From assembly GCA_000091205.1 (NCBI GenBank), contig AP006493.2: DNA of 64,000 nucleotides; one strand, written 5' to 3'. The stretch's first letter is position 1. Every line of letters starts with the position of its first letter. The translations under genes and the position numbers were made by a program. The notes beneath the pieces were generated by a model, which saw only the letters and a list, made by a program, of their open reading frames with translations, was not told the DNA's origin and searched no databases. Source of the stretch: Cyanidioschyzon merolae. Lineage: Eukaryota. Of the stretch, positions 53,498 to 64,000 are shown piece after piece.

Positions 53498-53880
53498 GTG
53501 AAGGTGATCCAGGAAGCACGCCAGAGCGCTGCGTTTCACAGGAACCGTCATATAAAAAGCATGTTCATACGCAGATCATGTGTCGGTATGCGTTTCCGGT
53601 GAAGGTGATCCAGGAAGCACGCCCGAGCGCTGCGTTTCACAGGAACCGTCATATAAAAAGCATGTTCATACGCAGATCATGTGTCGGTCTGCGTTTCCGG
53701 TGAAGGTGATCCAGGAAGCACGCCAGAGCGCTGCGTTTCACAGGAACCGTCATATAAAAAGCATGTTCATACGCAGATCATGTGTCGGTCTGCGTTTCCG
53801 GTGAAGGTGATCCAGGAAGCACGCCAGAGCGCTGCGTTTCACAGGAACCGTCATATAAAAAGCATGTTCATACGCAGATC
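53498..53880. repeat. Tandem repeat of a 101-bp unit, about 3.8 copies, with 1-2 substitutions between units
   Basis: Unit starts at 53498, 53599, 53700 and 53801 (gtgaaggtgatccaggaagcacgcc...catataaaaagcatgttcatacgcagatcatgtgtcggtctgcgtttccg). It generates repeated peptides in ORFs 53405..53983. Confidence 0.9.
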
Positions 53881-54622
53881 ATTATTCGCTGATGCCTCAT
53901 CATGGCCCAGACGTCCACGGACTGACACACGGAACGCAAGGCGTCTCGTTCGTCCAACAGGCGTATCGAGGCTGGCTCCATAATTCCCGAAAAAAATCCG
54001 TCTGCAGCGTGCTGTCCAGTGCTCGACTCATGGGAATCTTGTTGAATTCCGTCCTTTCAGAGAACCGTACTCGTTCCGTATCACATGAATATCGTACATG
54101 AGATACGCAATGTCATTCGAAAGGTCGCAGCGTCCATGCCGGCTGCCGGCACCCTTCGACCTCAAGCGGTGTGCAAACCAGAACACACCATCATCGGTGC
54201 CGCATTCCGGTAACGAGTCTCAGGAAGCATTCTCCACCAGCGGTGTCCGAACAGCGTGAAGCCGCTGCACAGGCGGTTCTCCTGCAGCGTGCCTGTGCTC
54301 TGCTCGGAGCTTGAAGCTGCTAGAAGCGGCACGTTACAGCGCGTTTGGAGATACGTACGGGAACGTAGCGCCTGGTTGTTGTTTCTCTGGAACGCTACCC
54401 ATCATGCTCATTGGACGTCACCGGATGCATAAGCAATGCGGGTTATCGATGCTGCGATTCCAGTAATCCCAAAAGTCATGACAAGCTCGACTCGTAGAGC
54501 AGCGCTTGCCCTGAATGCACCCGAGGTTCGATCCAGCGTGGCGGCACGAGGGCAAGGGCGTGGCTTTGGTGACAACCACGTTGCGCTCGCTTCTCCGCAG
54601 ACGCTGGTGCCGGTAAACGCCT

Positions 54623-57600
54623 GTGGTACGTCTGCGGAGCATGGAGACCGAGTTGTATCGAGAGAGCGCACTTTTCTCCTGGGATGAGGTTGCGACCTGG
54701 ACAACGCGTAGTTTGGCTACAGGGAGGACCGCGGAACCCGAGTCCATCGCTAGCCCTGGTGGGCCGACTGCCTCCCAGGGCGCAACGCAAACAGCGCTCG
54801 AAGCTAGCAGCGGGCGGGTTGTGGACGCGGGCGCGGTGTTTGGCGCTCCCGTACGAGACTCAGAGGCAGGTTTCAATGACGAGTACATCGAGGTGCTCAT
54901 CTGGAGGCTTTTGCGTCACAAGGAGCGGGATCGGGCTGGTGCCTCGCTTTGGCTCGAGATCGCCCGGAAACGTTTCTACGGTTCTATGCAAAAGTTTCCA
55001 GATCCAGGGGCTCTGGGAAACCTGTCGACTTTGCAAGCGACGCTTGCTCAAGTCTTACACGGAGAGCGGTGGCGTCTACTGGACGAATCCATCTCCGCCG
55101 TGGTCTTTGGTGCGGACCCGAGCTGGTGCTACCTCCTCGTTGCGGGTACTCGACTTGTCTGCGTTCGACTGAGCGCGCTCAAGTCAGCCCAGACAGAAGT
55201 TGTTGCTTACGAGTACAGAAACGGGTTGGGTGTAGGCACAGCGCTTTCGTCCGAACGAGTGATGCGAACACCTGGAAGCATGCGTCGGGAATCTGTTCAG
55301 GAAAGCCACCTCGATACCGAGACGGCGGATATGCGTTACTTTTCCATGGAGACCTACGCCCCATTTCCCTCGAACACAGTTCAGACGCTGCACTTGCCGA
55401 CCGAAGTTTACGCAATCCAAGCCTTGGAGGATGCGCCGCACGCTTTTATTGCGTTCGCACGAAGTGGGCATCTATTCCGTATCGAAATCATGCAGCCTAC
55501 GGGAATGGATGTGACAAACGTTTCATACACGCTGACGACGCTCGCATCCCCGAAGAGTTTCCGTAATTTCGGTCCAGCAAAGAGGATACTGCAATCACTG
55601 AAAACGCCGGGGCGCCTGGGGGCCACGGCGGGAGCCTCCACACCAACCCGCGTATCTCCGCTGGGAGTGGAGAGGCGGACGCCTTGGCTTGCCAGCAGCA
55701 GGTCTGCAGGTCGCGCTTTTGGACAAGTTCCGATCGTTGCAACTTGTGCGATGCGTGGCCACGTGTTGATGCTCGACATGGAGGGCATTTTTCGACTGTG
55801 GGACCTGGGCAACCCGCAGGTCTTTGTTGAGTCGGTGCCCTGGCGTGCCTCGCTGGCGTCATCGGGGAGTTTCGGCTTGGTGCCGCATACGCATTCTGTG
55901 GAGATAGCTGCGCCAAACGGAGTAATGGCCTCATTTTTAGCCGTCGTCTCTGTTTTGGACGCAAGCGGCCTGTTGCGTTTGCAACTCATTCATGTCGTCT
56001 TGCGGCGCGCTGCTGAGGAAAACAGCACGCCCACCGGTCTGGAACTCACCACACAGCTCTTGGCTGATGCGGAGGCGCCTGCGGAAGAGCTGACGACGTG
56101 CTGCTTCTGGCAATCGCAGCAGGCACTCTGTCTGGGCTGGGCAAACGGCAGTATCACCTTGATACCGGTATCCGCTGATGCTATCTCATCGGCAAGTACC
56201 CGGGAAGCCTCGGGAGAGCCCTGGTGGTCATTCTCACTGAAGCCGGTCTACAGTATCGCTGCCGAGGATGAGATAGATGCGGACCTCCATCTGCAAGGCG
56301 CCCTGGATCGGACACCGGGACGCGACCCGGTAGAGCGTATTCTAGCGCCGCATCGTTTCCCCTGGGGCACTGTCTACCGGGTACTGCAGCGTTCGCTCCG
56401 CAGCGAGCAAGATGCTGCAAATACCTCTGCCGTGACGTCGGAGTACGCACTGGATCAAAGCATGTCACCGTGGACGTTATCGGCGTCGCCGTGCCTCGTT
56501 CGGTATCTGCGGGAGCGCCTGGTCGAGCTCGCAACACAGGATCCCGCGACGATGGATCGCTTCCTTCGTCGCGTTCGCATGTTTTACCTCGAAAACGACG
56601 CGTCCGTTCTACAGCTGCAACCGATGCCTCTTTTGGATGCATTCAGCCTTGTCGTGCATCCCTGGGGTGCCGCCGTACTCCGCCTCTGTGATGCGTCGGA
56701 GTGCCTGTTTTTCCGGAGTCGCGATCATTCGTTCAGCACCAATCAGGGCGATGCGCTGCCCTGGATGACTTTCTTGAGTAGGCTGCTTGTCGAGCGCTTC
56801 AATGCTTCACGCTGCGATGCCTCGATTGGTGGATCAACGCCAGCGCTGGAGCCACTTGCATCGCCACCGGCCTTGCTGCAACAGGACGACTCGGCAGCGC
56901 TGCTGCATCACCTGTGGGATATCGTGACTGGTCCATGTCTGCTGACCGCGGATGCTCTACAGCGCCTCCAACCGCCACCTGGCCTGCTAGCAGTCGTGCA
57001 GGCTACAAGTCTGCCGCAAATTGCCTACGTGCGGCGGACTTTTGCTGGCATTGGCGCGAATCTTGCCGCGCTAGGGCAGCAGCAGCAGCAGCAGCAGCTA
57101 AATTTCTGGAATCACCAGGAACGGCTGTGGGACTTGGCACTGCGCATCAGCACCAGCGCCGAGCTAAGCGACCAGTACGGACACCATTTCGTGGAACGAA
57201 TGCTCGGGAACGGCGAGTGGCTCGTTTGGCTGAAAATGCAGCACGCGCTCAGCACAGACTCTGTTAACGCCAACGCAAGCGCGTCTGCCGGCTCTGCCAC
57301 CTGGTTGACGCTGGTACCGCTGCTGATACGGCCGAGTCCTTCGATGGTACGTCTTCTGGTAGAGAAGGCGCCGTTGCACTGGGCGCTGCTCCTGATCGAT
57401 TCTTTCTATGAGAATGAGATGCCTGCGGTTCGTGCTCATGTGGCAGGCCTCATCGCACTGCAGCGCTGGCGTGAGGAGCGGCAAACGGATCCAGTGTCGC
57501 CTTTTGTTGAGGCGTGGACGGAGCTCCAGCAGAAGCAGCGGCCACTTGATCTGGAACTCTTACCACAACTCGTTGGAAGTATGAGCGGTGCACTGGATTA

Positions 57601-59233
57601 CGCAGAACGCATGGTGGAGTTTCTCGAGGATCAACAGGCGCATGAGGCAGCCTGTCAAATGGCGCGAGTCGCCCTTGCGACCCTAAGGGCAGAGCGCCAT
57701 GTGCAAGCAGGAGGCGAGCCTCAACCGGGCCTCGTTTCTGTACGTGAACGAACCGAGCGAGAAATCACCCAGACTCAGTTGGGATTCTTTCTATTCATGC
57801 GGGCACTGGATACGAACGCGCTCGACGAGGCGCTCTCGGTGCTCGTGAAGGATCTCCGGGAATCGAGTGCGCCTCAGACCCGTGATGCGCTCTATCTCCT
57901 GCTACAAAAAGCCATCGAAATGAAAGGAATGCCGTGGTTGCTGGCTCAATCCCTACCACCTCTGTGCTTTCTGCGCTCTGCTGAGGCGCTTTGGCGCCTC
58001 GCGACCGCCTGTGATCTGGAGCGTGCGGGTTCACTGTACGAGACGACGTGTGCTGTTTACATGACTCGGAACGAATGGTGGCTGGCAGCGTGCGTCGCCG
58101 TTGACTGGGCCGAGCGTACTCGTCAAGCACTGGACGCGGTACCAGCGGCACAGCAAGCGCAGTTGCTGGTCGACGCTTCAGCCGCTGGCGAGTCTGAACG
58201 CGTCACATGGCTCCTGGAGCAACGTCAGTGCGCGTTACAGCTCGCGCTCTACCTGCTCAAGCAGGCCGGGGACAAAGCCGTTCCCGTCACTCCGTCCTGG
58301 GTGATGGTCCAAGAGGCTGACATTCGTCGGGCCTGGTTGCTCGTTCGCTATCAACGTGCACTGCGACGTCAGCTGAATGCATCGGGGCACAGCAGCGGAA
58401 ACTTGCGTTTCCTATTCGAGACCAGCGATGCGGCAGCTCGATCCGTGGCGTATCAGCTTGTCGCTAGTCCACATCGTTTCGATGGTGAGAGCGGTATCAT
58501 GGCAGCTCTGAGGCTCACGTGTTTATGGTGGAACGAAGCTACTGCTGCTACTGCTGCATCTTCTGATGCGGCGGCTCCAAGCATGGCGCTCGCTGATGTT
58601 CGTCGCGAGACTGCTCGTATTATTCGCCTTGCTGTCGAGCGTGTGCAACCTTTATATGATGAACATGCAGCGGCTGATGCTGCGCTCGTCCAGATCGACA
58701 AGGAACTCGAAGCGGCCCTCAATTACGCTGCTTTGACCGCGCGAACTGGGTACGTTTTCACTCCTGCTCTGGAGGCCTGGATTCAGTGCACTGGCAAGCC
58801 CATGCAGACCGCTAGCTCCGAGCGCAGAACGAATTCCCAGGGAATAGCTACAGAGCGCTTGCCGAACAGGGACCTGGACCCTGCTGCGATACCAACGTCA
58901 ACTGCGGAAGCGAGGATACCCAGTCGCAAACAAAGCGATGACGCGAGCGAGTCCAAACCGGCGCCGTCCACCTTCAAAACGAAAGTGACAGTGGGCATCG
59001 CTTCGGCACCACGTTGGCTAGTTGATGCCGTGGCCCTGCGCGAGAACCACCTCGAGTCTATGCTGAAGCTGCTGATACAAAAGCAGCTCTATGCTGACGC
59101 TGCTCAACTCGTTGTCTTGCGCTTGGAGTGCAGCAGCCCTCGGCGACACCCTATCTATCTCTCACAACATGTTCTGCTTCAGCTGCGAGAACTCCTGAAC
59201 GCTGCCCCGGACACCAGTGCAACCACGTCCTGA
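54623..59233 (+). CDS. Hypothetical 1536-aa protein with an internal poly-Gln tract. The N-terminal half may be beta-rich and the C-terminal half alpha-solenoid.
   Basis: Longest ORF in the window. No recognisable enzymatic motif. The (CAG)7 tract at 57071-57095 encodes Q7. Confidence 0.55.
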   Translation: MVRLRSMETELYRESALFSWDEVATWTTRSLATGRTAEPESIASPGGPTASQGATQTALEASSGRVVDAGAVFGAPVRDSEAGFNDEYIEVLIWRLLRHKERDRAGASLWLEIARKRFYGSMQKFPDPGALGNLSTLQATLAQVLHGERWRLLDESISAVVFGADPSWCYLLVAGTRLVCVRLSALKSAQTEVVAYEYRNGLGVGTALSSERVMRTPGSMRRESVQESHLDTETADMRYFSMETYAPFPSNTVQTLHLPTEVYAIQALEDAPHAFIAFARSGHLFRIEIMQPTGMDVTNVSYTLTTLASPKSFRNFGPAKRILQSLKTPGRLGATAGASTPTRVSPLGVERRTPWLASSRSAGRAFGQVPIVATCAMRGHVLMLDMEGIFRLWDLGNPQVFVESVPWRASLASSGSFGLVPHTHSVEIAAPNGVMASFLAVVSVLDASGLLRLQLIHVVLRRAAEENSTPTGLELTTQLLADAEAPAEELTTCCFWQSQQALCLGWANGSITLIPVSADAISSASTREASGEPWWSFSLKPVYSIAAEDEIDADLHLQGALDRTPGRDPVERILAPHRFPWGTVYRVLQRSLRSEQDAANTSAVTSEYALDQSMSPWTLSASPCLVRYLRERLVELATQDPATMDRFLRRVRMFYLENDASVLQLQPMPLLDAFSLVVHPWGAAVLRLCDASECLFFRSRDHSFSTNQGDALPWMTFLSRLLVERFNASRCDASIGGSTPALEPLASPPALLQQDDSAALLHHLWDIVTGPCLLTADALQRLQPPPGLLAVVQATSLPQIAYVRRTFAGIGANLAALGQQQQQQQLNFWNHQERLWDLALRISTSAELSDQYGHHFVERMLGNGEWLVWLKMQHALSTDSVNANASASAGSATWLTLVPLLIRPSPSMVRLLVEKAPLHWALLLIDSFYENEMPAVRAHVAGLIALQRWREERQTDPVSPFVEAWTELQQKQRPLDLELLPQLVGSMSGALDYAERMVEFLEDQQAHEAACQMARVALATLRAERHVQAGGEPQPGLVSVRERTEREITQTQLGFFLFMRALDTNALDEALSVLVKDLRESSAPQTRDALYLLLQKAIEMKGMPWLLAQSLPPLCFLRSAEALWRLATACDLERAGSLYETTCAVYMTRNEWWLAACVAVDWAERTRQALDAVPAAQQAQLLVDASAAGESERVTWLLEQRQCALQLALYLLKQAGDKAVPVTPSWVMVQEADIRRAWLLVRYQRALRRQLNASGHSSGNLRFLFETSDAAARSVAYQLVASPHRFDGESGIMAALRLTCLWWNEATAATAASSDAAAPSMALADVRRETARIIRLAVERVQPLYDEHAAADAALVQIDKELEAALNYAALTARTGYVFTPALEAWIQCTGKPMQTASSERRTNSQGIATERLPNRDLDPAAIPTSTAEARIPSRKQSDDASESKPAPSTFKTKVTVGIASAPRWLVDAVALRENHLESMLKLLIQKQLYADAAQLVVLRLECSSPRRHPIYLSQHVLLQLRELLNAAPDTSATTS

Positions 59234-59335
59234 ACCTAGACCGCGCTGTGCTCGCGCCTGTACCAGCAGCGGCAACCGATAGCCCGTACCGCCCGAGCGC
59301 GATTCTCCCGCCATACGGGCACTGATTCGGATACC

Positions 59336-59680
59336 TTACGAGCCGGGACGCTTCTGATTAGCGCGATGCGCTTCAATGCGTTGCGTAAGTTCCACCTCCA
59401 GGTCGCCCAGTTTGTGACCCACAAACGCGCCGCCCGCTGCGAAGAGCACGTGCTCCCAGGGTCGCCGCATCAACGGCAGCTTTTGGAGTGCGTTTGACAT
59501 AAGTTGCACTGCTAAACCAAACAGCGCCCCAGACCAAGCACTTACCATCGCCAGCACTAGGTGTCTAAGGAACCAGCTCGACGGGTCTCGTGACGCTTCT
59601 TCAACGATGACGCGAGCGTTTGTTCCGATCCTACACTGAGCAAGGGGTGTTGCAGCGGCGCCAGCGGATGCGATCGGCAA
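59336..59680 (-). CDS. Possible small (114-aa) single-TM protein, unassigned
   Basis: Short ORF in a 1.5-kb gap with one hydrophobic helix (LVLAMVSAWSGALFGLAV). Weak support. Confidence 0.2.
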   Translation of the reverse strand: MPIASAGAAATPLAQCRIGTNARVIVEEASRDPSSWFLRHLVLAMVSAWSGALFGLAVQLMSNALQKLPLMRRPWEHVLFAAGGAFVGHKLGDLEVELTQRIEAHRANQKRPGS

Positions 59681-60610
59681 ATCGGTGGACCTTGTCCTTA
59701 AATTATAAATATGTACAGTTTAATACAGTTACGATCGAAGCGACCATGCAGGGTCGCATGCGCAACGCGGATACGATGGCACCTATCTAGCCACCTTGAT
59801 CCATACGTTTCCGAGCCTTATACGACCCGCTGCCTACTATCGGTTTCTGCTTCTCTTTATTCACTTCGAGTATCGAAGGTTACCTCAGAGAATTCGATCG
59901 CGACAGTTCCGCGGGTCACGTCTTCGGTACCACATATCGTCTGATAGGGATGGCGGTGTTGAAGTCGCGGCTCAAGCACTTCATACACATCTATTGCCGC
60001 AGCTTGAATGCACCATTGCAAGAATTGCCAGACTTTGTGCCCACTGTGCTATCTGGTGCTGTGCCAGCTCTCCGCGCTTTTCTACCGCTCAAGCGTACCG
60101 CTGCGCTCTCTCCATCGCCCAGCGTTTTCGGGACCATTCGAACAAGCTGTTGAGCAGAAGAGGCACCTGTGGCGACTATGATCGTTGCTTTTGCTTTCCA
60201 TACGGTGGTGAACGGGTCGTTTGCTACTATCTATCGTTACCACACTGTTCCAATACGAGCTCTGGGCGCAGAGCGCATCCTCTTCGTGCTTTCAGTGTTC
60301 CTTAACCGTCTGCATACTGTGTTATGACTGACCTGATGGAGGAATGCTGCACTCCATGCGCTGTTCAGCAAAGAATAGATTCTATACACAATTCGACTCC
60401 GATCCATAGCATACATTGTAACGTGATATTGATCTTCTGCAGTACAAGGCTGCGAGTACGAAACAGAAATGAGTTGGTAGACTCTCCGACTGTGCGGCAG
60501 CAATCAACCAATATATACAGTTCCATACCATACTATGTAGACTGGGGCTGCGTCTAACGGGCACCTCGGCGGAACCCGTTGCAGAGCGGCGCGCGCCATC
60601 AGTGCTCTAC

Positions 60611-60637
60611 CGCCGCCGCCGCCGCCGCCGCCGCCGT
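60611..60637. repeat. (GCC)9 trinucleotide repeat ~130 bp upstream of the ABC ATPase ORF
   Basis: Direct reading: cgccgccgccgccgccgccgccgccgc. Confidence 0.9.
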
Positions 60638-60769
60638 CGATGCTGCCTGCCGCCGCTCGTGCCTTCAATCTCAACGAGCGCCGACACGCCTCGTTTGGCA
60701 GCGTGTGGAAACCAACGGTGCGAGGTAGTCTCTGCGTTTATCCATAACGCTGTTCCGAACTCGTGACGC

Positions 60770-62731
60770 ATGTTCACTATACCGACTAATTGGCACGCAC
60801 TAGTCTGGTCGCATACAGCGTCAAGGACCCGGTTTCCGGGCAGTGCGAGCTTCGCGAAGCGACCTGAGCACGGCACTGCGGCCTCGTTACCGGTACAGAA
60901 ACCGAGGCGTAACGCGCTCTTATCGGCACAATGGCGCGAATCAAAACGCTCCTGGTCTTCAACGGCTATTACTCGGGAAACAATGACCCCACTAGAGCTT
61001 CCGTTCTTGCGACTTAGCCGAATGGCGGCTGGCGACGCTCCTAGGTCAGCTGCAGTGACGCCTGACTCAGCGACGCCGGTAGCGGAACTCGTCAACGTGT
61101 CGTACCACGTTCGGGAGCACTTTCCTGTCATTGAAGATATCTCGCTAGCCCTGCACCGCTACGAAATTGTATGTCTTGTGGGGCAGTCGGGTTCCGGAAA
61201 ATCGACCATATTGCGCCTCTTCGCTGGCTTGGTGCAGCCGACGCGCGGTACCGTGTACTTTGCAGGGAAGCCGCTGCGTGGCGTAAACCCCAATGCAGCC
61301 ATTGTCTTTCAAAACTTTGCGTTATTCCCGTGGCTCACGGTGGTGGAAAACGTGATGCTGGGTCTGGGATCCGAAATCCCTCTAGCCGAACGCCGTCGAC
61401 AAGCGACTGCGATCGTCGATATGATTGGACTCGATGGCTACGAGAATGCGTATCCGCGCGAATTATCAGGTGGCCAACGCCAACGCGTAGGATTCGCACG
61501 AGCGCTGGTAACCCATCCGACGCTGTTGCTGCTGGACGAACCGTTTAGTGCACTGGACGTGCTTACTGCAGAGAACCTGCGCTCTGAGCTCCTGAACCTT
61601 TGGACGCATGGCTCGATGCCGACGCAGAGTATCCTCATGGTCACGCATGGCATTGAAGAGGCTGTATCCCTGGCGGATCGCATTGTCGTCTTGGGCAAGG
61701 GTCCAGGCCGTATACGGGCTGAAATCCCGGTACGTCTCCGCCATCCACGGGATCGCAAGTCGGATGCATTTCAGGAGCTCGTCGATCGGGTATATAAAAT
61801 CATCAGCGACGAGGTTACGCTTCCGGTAGATGCTGTGGACCAAGTCACGTCGGTTACAGAGCGTTCAGGAAGAGGCGGTGCAACGGCATCGGATTCTCGC
61901 GTGCTCGTGTCGCCACCGGATCGTGCGCAAAGTCAACGAGGCTCTATTGCCAGCACCGAGCAGGAAACCCAGAATCGAGCTGGTGATAACGCTGCCGCCG
62001 CAAGCCCAAGCACAACGAATGACGGACAGCCAAGTGATCGTCCGTTGTCGGCAGCTGCGAAGCGCCAGCTGCTGCAAAAGGCCGCGAGGAGTAATGACGA
62101 GCGCTTGAACGAGTTCCCGGCATTACCACCGGTTCGGTTGGGATCTGTGGCGGGGCTTCTCCAGCTTCTCGCCTCAGAGAACAGCCCCGTCGTGGACCTC
62201 TATCGCTTAGGCCAGGCGCTGCAGCTCGATGTGCACGGCCTGTATCCGATCGTAGAGGCTGCGGAAATTCTGGGTCTCCTCTCTGTATCTGAAGGAGACG
62301 TGGCGCTCACTGGGGCTGGGCATGCCTTTGTTGCCGGCAGCGTCGATGATCGAAAGCGAATAGTTCGGGGAGCGCTGCTCGTGGCTCCAGATGCACGTCT
62401 CATCCAAACCATTTGTCGATTGTTGCAGCGAGCTAAGCATCGTCGCATTCCAGAGAGCCTGGTGCTCGACAGTTTACTCGATCGATACTTCGAGCCGTCC
62501 GAGTCTCGTCGTCAGCTCGACACCGCGATCGAATGGGGTCGCTATGCCGAGCTCTTTGCGTACGATAGCGTCAGCGGCGAACTCTTCCTCGAGGACGAGA
62601 ACGACGCCAACACGAACGGAATGCTCGCGGATCGCCGCTCCACTGAAACCTATCAGACGGAGACGCCAAACCAACGGCCCCGGGTAACCAACGCGGGGCA
62701 CTCGGTAGACACAGCGCCGGATCTGGAATAA
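60770..62731 (+). CDS. ABC transporter ATP-binding protein of the bacterial NitT/TauT (nitrate/sulfonate/bicarbonate; SsuB/TauB/NrtD/CmpD-like) family. It has a ~330-aa C-terminal extension and a possible N-terminal presequence. The alternative start is 60983.
   Basis: Walker A GQSGSGKST, Q-loop, ABC signature LSGGQRQRV, Walker B LLLLDEPFSALD, H-loop VTHGIEEA. The short nucleotide-binding-domain layout and flanking conservation (IVFQNFALFPWLTVVENV) are typical of NitT/TauT ATPases. No cognate permease or binding protein is nearby. Confidence 0.85.
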   Translation: MFTIPTNWHALVWSHTASRTRFPGSASFAKRPEHGTAASLPVQKPRRNALLSAQWRESKRSWSSTAITRETMTPLELPFLRLSRMAAGDAPRSAAVTPDSATPVAELVNVSYHVREHFPVIEDISLALHRYEIVCLVGQSGSGKSTILRLFAGLVQPTRGTVYFAGKPLRGVNPNAAIVFQNFALFPWLTVVENVMLGLGSEIPLAERRRQATAIVDMIGLDGYENAYPRELSGGQRQRVGFARALVTHPTLLLLDEPFSALDVLTAENLRSELLNLWTHGSMPTQSILMVTHGIEEAVSLADRIVVLGKGPGRIRAEIPVRLRHPRDRKSDAFQELVDRVYKIISDEVTLPVDAVDQVTSVTERSGRGGATASDSRVLVSPPDRAQSQRGSIASTEQETQNRAGDNAAAASPSTTNDGQPSDRPLSAAAKRQLLQKAARSNDERLNEFPALPPVRLGSVAGLLQLLASENSPVVDLYRLGQALQLDVHGLYPIVEAAEILGLLSVSEGDVALTGAGHAFVAGSVDDRKRIVRGALLVAPDARLIQTICRLLQRAKHRRIPESLVLDSLLDRYFEPSESRRQLDTAIEWGRYAELFAYDSVSGELFLEDENDANTNGMLADRRSTETYQTETPNQRPRVTNAGHSVDTAPDLE

Positions 62732-63419
62732 GTCCCATCAGGGTCGACATTCCGCACAACAAACGCCTTGTTCAAAAACGGATCCATTAGAGGACGCCGC
62801 TGCCAGGGACCGCCTGTGTGGCGTTGTGCTCGAGAGCGCGCCCCATACGTTTCGTATATCGGGGCGCGTTTTACCTATTGCCTCTGTTTGGGGAGAACGA
62901 ATGCATGGATGCGGGAGTAGGCGCAGCTGTGAAATCCGCTATGGCTATCGCCGCTACTATATATCGGTATCGATGGTGAGAGCGTCACTCGACGCATGTG
63001 TTTCTGCGGACGGGGTGTCGTCAGGGGTTACGGTTCGATCCAGCGACATGCAGACGCCTTCTCTACTCGTACGTTTTGCTTAAAAAAGCGCTGACTACGA
63101 CTGGTTAACATTCTCGTTAAAGCGGAAAGCGGATACATTGGCGATCTGGATTGCTCTCGAACGAACCTGCGAAGACTCACCAGTAACCAGGTATCTCGAC
63201 AAGAATTTCAGGGATCGCTCACGCATGCATTGAAGCGAGTCGAGTCCATTTCTTGAACGTTTTCGGATGAGAATACGCTCCAAGACACTTTACTTATGCA
63301 ACGGTAACCGCAGACGACAAGCGTTCCCCTGAGACGCACAGAGCAGGTGCGCACGCCATATCCCGCCTGTTTCGCTCATGAGGGTCCGGGGATTCACGCC
63401 GACTCCCGACAAGTGCGCC

Positions 63420-64000
63420 TCAACGTTCCCACGGAGTGCGGAACTTGTCACCCACATAGACCGCTGACGAACCGAGCTCCTCTTCGATACGCAAAAGCTG
63501 GTTGTATTTCGCCAAGCGCTCAGAACGACACGGTGCACCGCTCTTGATCTGGCCGGTGCCGAGGCCAACCGTCAAGTCCGCAATGAAACTATCCTCGGTC
63601 TCGCCGCTGCGGTGACTCACCATGACCCCCCAGCGCAGGTCTCGGCAGAAGCGATTCGCATCCATGGCCTCGGTGACGGTTCCAATTTGGTTCACTTTGA
63701 GCAGAAGGGCGTTGCAGGCGCGTTTCTCCGCCGCGACCTTGATCCGGTCGATATTCGTAACCAGGAGATCGTCACCAACGACTTGGATCTTCTCTCCGAT
63801 TTGCTCCGTTAGCGCTGCGTATGCATCAAAGTCCTCTTCATGGAACGGATCCTCGACGGAGACCAGCGGGTACGTTCCGCAGAACGACTTGTAGAGCTGC
63901 ACGAGCTCGTCCTTGCTTACCAGCATGGAACTCGCCCCTTCGGGATGCTTAAAGTCCAGATCGTATTTCTGTTTCTCCTCGTTCCAGAACTGGCTAGCTG
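63420..64000 (-). CDS. ENO: Enolase (phosphopyruvate hydratase), C-terminal part. The gene continues beyond the window end.
   Basis: Conserved motifs: [10 protein letters not shown] (in frame up to position 64000), [59 protein letters not shown]. Confidence 0.9.

What the first reader, a model, noticed from the sequence alone, without database searches (positions are those of the whole stretch)
60770..62731. Orphan bacterial-type NitT/TauT ABC ATPase with a C-terminal extension in a eukaryotic gene neighbourhood
The nucleotide-binding domain is unmistakably of the prokaryotic nitrate/sulfonate/bicarbonate importer class, not a eukaryotic full or half transporter. It carries a ~330-aa C-terminal extension of the kind found on some bacterial nitrate/bicarbonate ATPases. 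There is also a possible ~70-100-aa N-terminal presequence. No permease or substrate-binding-protein gene is adjacent; enolase follows. Its codon usage and GC content match its eukaryotic neighbours, which argues against contamination. Candidates are an endosymbiont-derived plastid-envelope importer subunit, or a horizontal transfer.
Basis: partly seen in the sequence, partly recalled or inferred. Interest (0 to 1): 0.55.

Follow-up and report, generated by a model that had tools for sequence, protein, structure and literature searches.

The report
Red-algal plastid ABC transporter ATPase subunit
This is the already annotated Cyanidioschyzon merolae nuclear gene CMK129C, the probably plastid-targeted ATPase of a two-part ABC transporter inherited from the cyanobacterial ancestor of the plastid; its membrane partner lies on another chromosome, so it is not an orphan, and its substrate is still unknown.

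Summary
The ORF at 60770..62731 (+), 653 aa, is real. [quoted passage not shown]

Anatomy:
- a ~95-aa presequence starting MFTIP, which fits the red-algal F-type plastid-targeting motif;
- an intact NitT-type nucleotide-binding domain, closest solved relatives CmpD and NrtD;
- a ~100-aa disordered linker;
- a PF09821 domain that models confidently as two tandem winged helices;
- a disordered acidic tail.

The extension is not the NrtA-like domain of NrtC/CmpC.

In bacteria this ATPase sits in a two-gene operon with a duplicated-TMD permease, with no conserved binding-protein gene nearby. C. merolae encodes that permease (XP_005537656.1, CMO283C) on another chromosome, so the gene is unlinked from its partner, not an orphan.

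In NJ trees of both subunits, red algae form one clade that groups with cyanobacteria (97% and 100% bootstrap). All named eukaryotic hits are Rhodophyta. This favours endosymbiotic gene transfer. Four independent metagenome assemblies share the same gene order, which rules out a chimeric contig.

Substrate and membrane location are untested. The gene and the family are already described, so interest is modest.

The parts
60770..62731 (+). Complete intronless CDS, 653 aa plus stop. Identical to C. merolae 10D XP_005536544.1/BAM80508.1 (CMK129C).
   Evidence: ORF list. Exact-sequence look-up.
60770..61054 (+). Residues 1-95: N-terminal presequence and putative plastid transit peptide, starting MFTIP (F at position 2).
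   Evidence: Absent from cyanobacterial orthologues. Red-algal orthologues start MFALP, MFAAP, MAFV or MFVV. Composition is S/T/A/R-rich with 2% acidic residues in 1-50. The F-based motif is described in PMC7038456. The cleavage site was not determined.
61079..61804 (+). Residues 104-345: ABC nucleotide-binding domain of NitT/TauT type.
   Evidence: Pfam ABC_tran, E 2e-32. CmpD 9u9z_D E 4.9e-49 and NrtD 8wm7_D E 1.8e-47 over residues 114-338. AF2 pLDDT mostly above 90.
61181..61207 (+). Walker A, GQSGSGKST (residues 138-146).
   Evidence: Motif scan. Invariant G, K, S, T in alignment A1.
61463..61477 (+). ABC signature LSGGQ (residues 232-236).
61523..61558 (+). Walker B LLLLDE (residues 252-257) and D-loop SALD (residues 260-263).
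61640..61651 (+). H-switch VTHG (H293).
61805..62116 (+). Residues 346-449: low-complexity linker, expanded only in the eukaryotic orthologues.
   Evidence: The alignment shows about 100 extra residues compared with cyanobacteria. AF2 pLDDT is below 50 for protein residues ~352-423, followed by one helix.
62117..62599 (+). Residues 450-610: conserved LPxVRxGS motif followed by the PF09821 (AAA_assoc_C) domain, modelled as two tandem winged helices ending in WGRYAE.
62600..62728 (+). Residues 611-653: disordered acidic C-terminal tail. A long tail is present only in the Cyanidioschyzon/Cyanidiococcus group, with a shorter one in Cyanidium.
   Evidence: Alignment. D+E 21%. pLDDT below 50.

Best explanation
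The gene encodes the ATPase subunit of a two-component ABC transporter that red algae inherited from the cyanobacterial ancestor of the plastid.

Proposed mechanism:
- The precursor is made in the cytosol. It is imported into the plastid through its F-type transit peptide. (Inferred.)
- Two copies dock on the stromal face of a single polypeptide that carries two fused BPD_transp_1 transmembrane domains. In C. merolae this is CMO283C, encoded on another chromosome. (Inferred from the bacterial operon.)
- ATP binding and hydrolysis at the intact Walker A, Q-loop, LSGGQ, Walker B and H-switch sites drive alternating access of the permease. (Shown: the motifs are intact. Inferred: they act this way here.)
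- By homology with type-I importers of the NitT/TauT group, the direction would be towards the NBD side, that is, into the stroma. The membrane would be the inner envelope or, less likely, the thylakoid. (Inferred.)
- The substrate is unknown. A small anion or polar solute is the family-level guess.
- The C-terminal tandem winged-helix domain is shared with all bacterial orthologues. It most likely acts as a dimerisation or regulatory module holding the two NBDs together, analogous in position to the C-terminal regulatory domains of MalK, MetN and ModC. (Inferred.)
- The long disordered linker and tail are eukaryote-specific additions.

Shown here: identity, domain anatomy, intact catalytic motifs, existence of the partner, cyanobacterial affinity, pan-rhodophyte distribution.
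For: - Identity: the product is an exact match to XP_005536544.1.
- Domains and motifs.
- Bacterial operon: a 575-aa duplicated permease starts 5 bp downstream in Planktothrix. The permease is on the same strand as the ATPase in 44/44 named prokaryotic loci where it was detected.
- Only conserved neighbour: the ATPase is the only gene family conserved next to the permease across 77 loci.
- Partner in red algae: the top non-self clusters for the cyanobacterial permease are eukaryote-length proteins, including Galdieria XP_005705313.1 and a Porphyridium protein.
- Partner in C. merolae: a full-length permease lies in the same two JGI metagenomes that carry the window's ATPase, among eukaryotic genes. 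Its 90%-identity cluster contains C. merolae XP_005537656.1, 'unknown ABC anion transporter', on a 902,900-bp record.
- Literature: PMC10154280 lists CMK129C and CMO283 together. TargetP and PredAlgo predict plastid targeting for CMK129C.
- Phylogeny of the ATPase (NJ, NrtC/NrtD outgroup): red algae 197/200, cyanobacteria 200/200, red algae plus cyanobacteria 194/200.
- Phylogeny of the permease (NJ): 100/100 for all three groupings.
- Distribution: all named eukaryotic hits are Rhodophyta.
- Targeting signal: F-type N-termini are conserved across orthologues (PMC7038456).
Against: - No experimental localisation, interaction or transport data exist for either subunit.
- The permease's annotated N-terminus in C. 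merolae (MGRARE...) shows no obvious F motif, and PredAlgo calls it 'other'.
- The trees are distance-based, with limited cyanobacterial sampling and no Gloeomargarita.
- No orthologue was seen in green algae or glaucophytes. Endosymbiotic transfer therefore requires losses in those lineages.
- A type-I importer without a binding protein would be unusual. A binding protein could be encoded elsewhere, or the system may not be an importer at all. PMC3688454 itself questions whether it is a transporter.
- The best structural matches of the tandem winged helix are DNA-binding modules.
Confidence: 0.75

Rival explanations
1. It is what the annotation and the CCM literature suggest: the ATPase of a nitrate (NrtBCD) or bicarbonate (BCT1/CmpBCD) transporter.
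For: The closest solved chains by sequence are CmpD, NrtD, NrtC and CmpC. NCBIfam ntrCD scores 189.6 bits. The protein is listed as a BCT1 homologue in PMC10154280.
Against: - The score is below the TIGR01184 cut-off of 291.8.
- NrtC and NrtD fall outside the whole PF09821 clade when used as outgroup.
- There is no NrtA-like C-terminal domain.
- The permease is a fused duplicate rather than an NrtB/CmpB homodimer. It is only 24% identical to CmpB.
- No NrtA/CmpA-type binding protein is conserved next to the bacterial operons.
- Transcripts are not CO2-responsive, and CMK129C is not a reciprocal best hit of cmpC/cmpD.
Confidence: 0.1
2. The two genes were acquired by horizontal transfer into an early red alga, from a cyanobacterium or another bacterium, and not by transfer from the plastid ancestor.
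For: No named green-algal, plant or glaucophyte orthologue appears in the top hits. Cyanidiales are known to hold HGT-derived genes (PMC6629376, listed).
Against: - The genes are present in all sampled red-algal classes, and red algae form one clade.
- That clade is sister to cyanobacteria as a whole, not nested in a particular bacterial group.
- Both subunits give the same topology.
- The product carries a plastid-type presequence.

A transfer from a free-living cyanobacterium into the red-algal stem cannot be separated from EGT with these data.
Confidence: 0.1
3. The ATPase has a non-transport role. It would be a soluble plastid ABC ATPase whose tandem winged helix binds nucleic acid (nucleoid or regulatory function), with the permease relationship being vestigial.
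For: The whole C-domain superposes best on DNA-recognition modules of N.BspD6I, FokI and BrxA, and single winged helices on MarR repressors. The genes are unlinked in C. merolae. PMC3688454 questions whether the system transports at all.
Against: - The NBD is of importer type with a conserved Q-loop region.
- The ATPase and permease are co-transcribed neighbours in bacteria.
- Both subunits are co-retained across red algae.
- Winged helices are also common protein-protein and dimerisation modules. Foldseek's top hits are the dimerisation domains of O-methyltransferases.
Confidence: 0.04
4. It is an assembly artefact or bacterial contamination.
For: None beyond the bacterial look of the protein.
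Against: - Four independent assemblies share the same gene order at 99.25-99.5% identity.
- GC and GC3 match the neighbours.
- The protein has a eukaryote-specific presequence and linker.
- It is an exact match to the finished C. merolae chromosome record.
Confidence: 0.01

Closest known systems
[quoted passage not shown] Planktothrix tepida pair in L001; Ca. Liberibacter asiaticus CLIBASIA_02415/02420, PMC3688454)
   Same: Same architecture: NBD plus PF09821 tandem winged helix. Same partner: a single permease with two fused BPD_transp_1 domains. Identity over conserved columns is 53-54%. Red algae are sister to the cyanobacterial members in both subunit trees.
   Different: The eukaryotic version has a ~95-aa presequence, a ~100-aa disordered linker and an acidic tail. 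Its two genes lie on different nuclear chromosomes instead of in an operon. The function of the bacterial system is itself unknown. What is known: the L. crescens permease homologue is in the essential set, and the Las homologue is 7.24-fold up in planta (PMC4837290).
NrtC/NrtD and CmpC/CmpD of the cyanobacterial nitrate (NRT) and bicarbonate (BCT1) ABC importers (PDB 8wm7, 9u9z)
   Same: These are the closest solved NBDs (E 1e-43 to 5e-49 over residues 114-338). Same NitT branch of type-I importers.
   Different: NrtC/CmpC carry an NrtA-like solute-binding regulatory domain, not PF09821. Those systems use a separate NrtA/CmpA binding protein and an NrtB/CmpB homodimer. They fall outside the PF09821 clade.
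TauB, SsuB and PhnT2 ATPases (taurine, sulfonate, aminoethylphosphonate importers)
   Same: Top NCBIfam matches at 172-196 bits over the NBD.
   Different: All are far below the equivalog cut-offs of 357-458 bits. None has the winged-helix domain or a duplicated permease partner.
C-terminal regulatory domains of MalK, MetN and ModC (established knowledge, not tested here)
   Same: Same position: an extra domain fused after the NBD of a type-I importer ATPase, which dimerises under the NBDs and regulates activity.
   Different: Different fold (regulatory/TOBE/ACT-like versus tandem winged helix). This is an analogy only.
Plastid sulfate ABC transporter of green algae (SulP/SulP2/Sabc/Sbp; own knowledge)
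   Same: Another cyanobacterium-derived ABC importer retained in a plastid envelope, with nuclear-encoded, transit-peptide-bearing subunits.
   Different: Different family (CysTWA), with a binding protein. It occurs in the green lineage. No sequence relationship beyond the generic NBD.

Membership tests
ABC ATPase (PF00005) | Walker A, Q-loop, LSGGQ signature, Walker B with catalytic Glu, D-loop and H-switch all present | tested here: met
   GQSGSGKST 138-146, VFQ 179-181, LSGGQ 232-236, LLLLDE 252-257, SALD 260-263, VTHG 291-294. Pfam 113 bits against a cut-off of 25.
NitT/TauT-type importer NBD (TC 3.A.1.16/17) | The NBD is closest to the Nrt/Cmp/Tau/Ssu ATPases rather than to exporter or other importer classes | tested here: met
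   The top solved chains are CmpD, NrtD, NrtC and CmpC. The top NCBIfam models are PhnT2, TauB, ntrCD and SaoA.
NrtD/NrtC nitrate ATPase (TIGR01184 ntrCD), as the gene is annotated | Score at or above the curated family cut-off | tested here: not met
   189.6 bits against a cut-off of 291.8. NrtC and NrtD lie outside the clade.
NrtC/CmpC-type extended ATPase | C-terminal NrtA/CmpA-like solute-binding (NMT1-type) domain | tested here: not met
   No NMT1-type Pfam hit at E <= 0.1; the extension is PF09821. PDB matches to NrtC/CmpC cover only the NBD.
PF09821 two-gene ABC system | PF09821 (AAA_assoc_C) domain fused C-terminal to the NBD | tested here: met
   109.1 bits against a cut-off of 27.6, residues 478-599. 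Confident tandem winged-helix model.
PF09821 two-gene ABC system | Partner permease with two tandem BPD_transp_1 domains in one polypeptide | tested here: met
   The C. merolae-type permease has two BPD_transp_1 stretches. It is in the same 90%-identity cluster as XP_005537656.1. It is not adjacent in the window.
PF09821 two-gene ABC system | No dedicated substrate-binding protein | tested here: inconclusive
   No binding-protein family is conserved in 77 bacterial loci, and none was detected in Liberibacter (PMC3688454). The full C. merolae genome could not be searched with these tools.
Endosymbiont-derived (EGT) plastid protein | Monophyletic algal clade sister to, or nested in, cyanobacteria | tested here: met
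   NJ bootstrap 194/200 for the ATPase and 100/100 for the permease. Distance method only.
Endosymbiont-derived (EGT) plastid protein | Present across Archaeplastida, or explained by documented losses | tested here: inconclusive
   Only Rhodophyta appear among the named eukaryotic hits. Many Logan and metagenome hits are unnamed, and a taxon-restricted search was not possible.
Rhodophyte plastid-targeted precursor | N-terminal extension with an aromatic residue (usually F) at the very N-terminus, hydroxylated, basic and poor in acidic residues | tested here: met
   The protein starts MFTIP. Orthologues start MFALP, MFAAP, MAFV or MFVV. Composition. Motif definition from PMC7038456.
Rhodophyte plastid-targeted precursor | Experimentally shown plastid localisation | not testable with these tools
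   Only predictions are available: TargetP 'thylakoid lumen' and PredAlgo 'chloroplast' (PMC10154280).

The most novel reading that the evidence does not exclude
The PF09821 system may not be a nitrate, sulfonate or bicarbonate importer at all. It could be a distinct ABC machine that works without a binding protein and has an uncharacterised housekeeping substrate or regulatory role. Its permease homologue is in the essential gene set of Liberibacter crescens. Red algae, seemingly alone among eukaryotes, would have kept the complete machine in their plastids. The tandem winged helix would couple transport to a partner protein or even to plastid DNA.
Probability: 0.25. Interest if true: 0.6.

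Novelty: already known. Interest (0 to 1): 0.3.

Why it matters
Few plastid-envelope transporters trace back to the cyanobacterial endosymbiont; most are thought to be of host origin (PMC2246286, listed).

This pair is a complete cyanobacterial ABC system kept by red algae. It has been proposed, on homology alone, as a candidate bicarbonate transporter for the C. merolae carbon-concentrating mechanism. The evidence here argues that it is not a BCT1 or NRT orthologue. It belongs instead to a separate, functionally unstudied family.

That redirects the experiment. C. merolae is genetically tractable, so it could be the organism in which the function of this widespread bacterial family is finally determined.

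As a genome-scan finding, however, it is an annotated gene of a model organism.

Tried and rejected
- tblastn of the Planktothrix permease against the whole window: nothing (best E 3.9). The partner is not local.
- Direct word-index search with the cyanobacterial permease: only cyanobacteria in the 120 rows shown. The exhaustive representatives search was needed to surface the red-algal permeases.
- Sequence search of the C-domain against PDB: no relative.
- Literature searches for PF09821, COG4986, the Liberibacter locus tags and CMK129C: one structural and comparative description, one essentiality and expression table, one homology listing. No functional study.
- First NJ tree: it gave weak support and odd rooting. 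Two high-GC loci (Amycolatopsis, Citrifermentans) had been read in the wrong frame. These were fixed and an NrtC/NrtD outgroup was added.
- Neighbourhood clustering of 77 bacterial loci: apart from the ATPase, the recurrent 'families' were short antisense ORFs. MgtE was next door in 9 loci, which is probably local synteny. No binding protein was found.
- Contamination or chimera: rejected.
- tRNA scan of 59000-64000: none.
Full report
**Observation**

Its ATG is the first one after an in-frame stop two codons upstream.

Pfam finds two domains:
- ABC_tran at residues 122-259 (E 2e-32);
- PF09821 'C-terminal AAA-associated domain' at residues 478-599 (E 2.6e-31; 109 bits against a cut-off of 27.6).

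The NBD is of the prokaryotic nitrate/sulfonate/taurine importer type.
- The best NCBIfam models are PhnT2, TauB, ntrCD and SaoA. All score far below their curated cut-offs.
- The closest solved chains are CmpD (9u9z_D, E 4.9e-49), NrtD (8wm7_D), NrtC and CmpC. They align only over residues 114-338.
- All catalytic motifs are intact.

GC (0.58) and GC3 (0.60) are within the range of the neighbouring ORFs (profile). No permease is encoded anywhere in the window. The C-terminal part of enolase follows on the minus strand.

**Identity of the locus**

[quoted passage not shown] The same name is given to CMK129C in PMC10154280. The window is therefore C. merolae nuclear DNA and the gene is already annotated.

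Four independent metagenome assemblies (three JGI, one ENA) carry the same order: 1530-aa protein, ABC ATPase, enolase, TAF10, Dna2. They are collinear with the window at 99.25-99.5% DNA identity over 5-11 kb. A chimeric contig is excluded.

The prokaryote-style gene callers used on those metagenomes start the protein at Met72. This removes the presequence.

**Anatomy**

I aligned the protein with red-algal and cyanobacterial homologues and made two AlphaFold models. Together they give five parts.

1. Residues 1 to ~95 are absent from cyanobacteria.
   - The sequence starts MFTIP. Orthologues start MFALP (Cyanidiococcus), MFAAP (Cyanidium), MAFV (Hildenbrandia, Pyropia) and MFVV (Porphyridium).
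   - Residues 1-50 are 20% S+T, 14% A, 14% R+K and 2% D+E.
   - This fits the F-based plastid-targeting motif 'at the very N-terminus' of rhodophyte and glaucophyte precursors (PMC7038456).
2. Residues ~104-345 form the NBD, with pLDDT mostly above 90.
3. Residues ~346-449 form a low-complexity linker. It is about 100 residues longer than in cyanobacteria and has pLDDT below 50.
4. Residues ~450-610 begin with a conserved LPxVRxGS motif, followed by PF09821.
   - The domain model has mean pLDDT 93.5 and pTM 0.87. It consists of two consecutive winged helices.
   - Foldseek gave only weak hits, led by the dimerisation winged helix of O-methyltransferases.
   - No solved structure is related by sequence.
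5. Residues ~611-653 form a disordered acidic tail.

The relative position of the NBD and the winged-helix domain is undefined in the monomer model (pTM 0.51).

The '~330-aa extension' is therefore linker plus tandem winged helix plus tail. It is not the NrtA-like binding-protein domain that NrtC and CmpC carry.

**The partner**

In Planktothrix tepida the orthologous ATPase (445 aa, same two domains) is followed after 5 bp by a 575-aa protein with two BPD_transp_1 domains.

The pairing holds across bacteria.
- In 44 of 44 named prokaryotic loci where the permease was detected, it lies on the same strand as the ATPase.
- I clustered all ORFs around 77 permease loci. The only conserved neighbour was the ATPase (51 loci). 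No binding-protein family appeared.
- This matches the 2012 description of the Liberibacter pair CLIBASIA_02415/02420. That paper called it 'a possible novel ABC system': no binding protein, duplicated TMD, and a PF09821 domain predicted to be a winged helix (PMC3688454).

Red algae have the permease too.
- In an exhaustive HMMER search with the cyanobacterial permease, the best non-self clusters were eukaryote-length proteins: 738, 691, 696 and 639 aa, at 55-59% identity.
- These include Galdieria sulphuraria XP_005705313.1, a cluster that also holds a Porphyridium aerugineum protein, and a Cyanidiales-type protein.
- The Cyanidiales-type gene sits among Vps4, a steroid dehydrogenase, a UBX protein and RPS17.
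- A full-length copy lies on contigs of the same two JGI metagenomes that carry the window's ATPase, with the same neighbours.
- Its 90%-identity cluster contains XP_005537656.1/BAM81620.1, 'unknown ABC anion transporter [C. merolae 10D]', 918 aa, on a 902,900-bp record. This is CMO283 of PMC10154280.

The ATPase is therefore not an orphan. The operon was split between two nuclear chromosomes.

**Origin**

I built an NJ tree of 66 ATPases from 431 well-aligned columns, using Kimura distances and 200 bootstraps. It was rooted with a cyanobacterial NrtC/NrtD pair.
- Red algae are monophyletic in 197/200 replicates.
- Cyanobacteria are monophyletic in 200/200.
- Red algae plus cyanobacteria form a clade in 194/200.

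An earlier tree was distorted by two wrong-frame ORFs, corrected.

The permease tree (55 sequences, 558 columns) gives 100/100 for all three groupings.

All named eukaryotic hits in two searches are Rhodophyta: Cyanidioschyzon, Cyanidiococcus, Cyanidium, Galdieria, Porphyridium, Rhodosorus, Hildenbrandia, Pyropia, Gracilaria and Agarophyton.

This is the pattern expected for endosymbiotic gene transfer followed by vertical inheritance in red algae. It is not a eukaryote-wide ABC clade, and it is not a recent bacterial transfer into Cyanidiales.

Caveats:
- the method is distance-based;
- cyanobacterial sampling is limited;
- many unnamed hits remain;
- the apparent absence from green algae and glaucophytes means a stem-rhodophyte acquisition from a cyanobacterium cannot be excluded.

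**Mechanism**

The best-supported model has five steps.
1. The precursor is imported into the plastid.
2. Two copies bind the stromal face of the fused-TMD permease CMO283C.
3. ATP hydrolysis drives transport, towards the stroma if the system behaves like its NitT/TauT relatives.
4. The tandem winged helix acts as a dimerisation or regulatory module beneath the NBDs.
5. The substrate is unknown.

The nitrate and bicarbonate annotations are not supported as orthology statements.
- The score is below the ntrCD cut-off.
- The protein lies outside NrtC/NrtD in the tree.
- The C-domain and the permease architecture are different.
- No NrtA/CmpA-type partner is conserved in the bacterial operons.
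- Transcripts are not CO2-responsive.

The only functional hints for the family come from Liberibacter. The L. crescens permease homologue is in the essential gene set, and the Las homologue is 7.24-fold up in planta (PMC4837290).

**Verdict**

- right on NBD class, presequence, non-contamination and endosymbiont origin;
- wrong on 'orphan';

The gene and its family are already described, so novelty is low. The open question is what this widespread and unstudied two-gene ABC system transports, and why red algae kept it in the plastid.

Noticed in passing
window 53498-53882: A 101-bp unit repeated 3.8 times in tandem at 98% identity, in the intergenic space upstream of the 1536-aa ORF. It is also present in the metagenome contigs L003 and L004.
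   Followed up: partly
window 60610-60656: An imperfect (CCG)n microsatellite of about 15 units, 115-160 bp upstream of the CMK129C start codon. It reads as a poly-Arg run in spurious ORFs on both strands.
   Followed up: no
window 54623-59233 (+): A 1536-aa ORF with an internal poly-Q run and no Pfam domain at E <= 0.001. It is conserved next to the ABC gene in all four metagenome contigs. Function unknown.
   Followed up: no
L003-L006 (JGI 3300005573, 3300005861, 3300027863; ENA ERZ27249350): Environmental contigs are 99.25-99.5% identical in DNA to C. merolae 10D over >10 kb (L003-L005; ~5 kb for L006), so very close relatives of the laboratory strain occur in these samples. Prokaryote-style gene calling there truncates the ATPase to 582 aa (start at Met72), which removes the transit peptide.
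   Followed up: partly
L012 4530-7286 (C. merolae-type permease, CMO283C cluster): The longest ORF (918 aa, as annotated in C. merolae) has a ~200-aa N-terminal extension without an obvious F motif. Metagenome callers start it at Met158 (761 aa). The true start and the targeting signal of the permease are unresolved.
   Followed up: partly
P0477 (MMETSP transcript, 437 aa): An ATPase of cyanobacterial length with no presequence appears in a eukaryotic transcriptome collection. It is probably a cyanobacterial contaminant of that culture.
   Followed up: no
L013, L016-L018, L023 (marine metagenome contigs): These carry permease homologues that are 58-60% identical to the Cyanidiales protein. L013 has a long Ala/Pro/Arg-rich N-terminal extension and groups with the red-algal clade, so it is likely from uncultured marine red algae or relatives.
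   Followed up: partly
bacterial loci L013-L088: An MgtE-type magnesium transporter gene lies near the permease in 9 loci. This is probably local synteny in one cyanobacterial group rather than a functional link.
   Followed up: no
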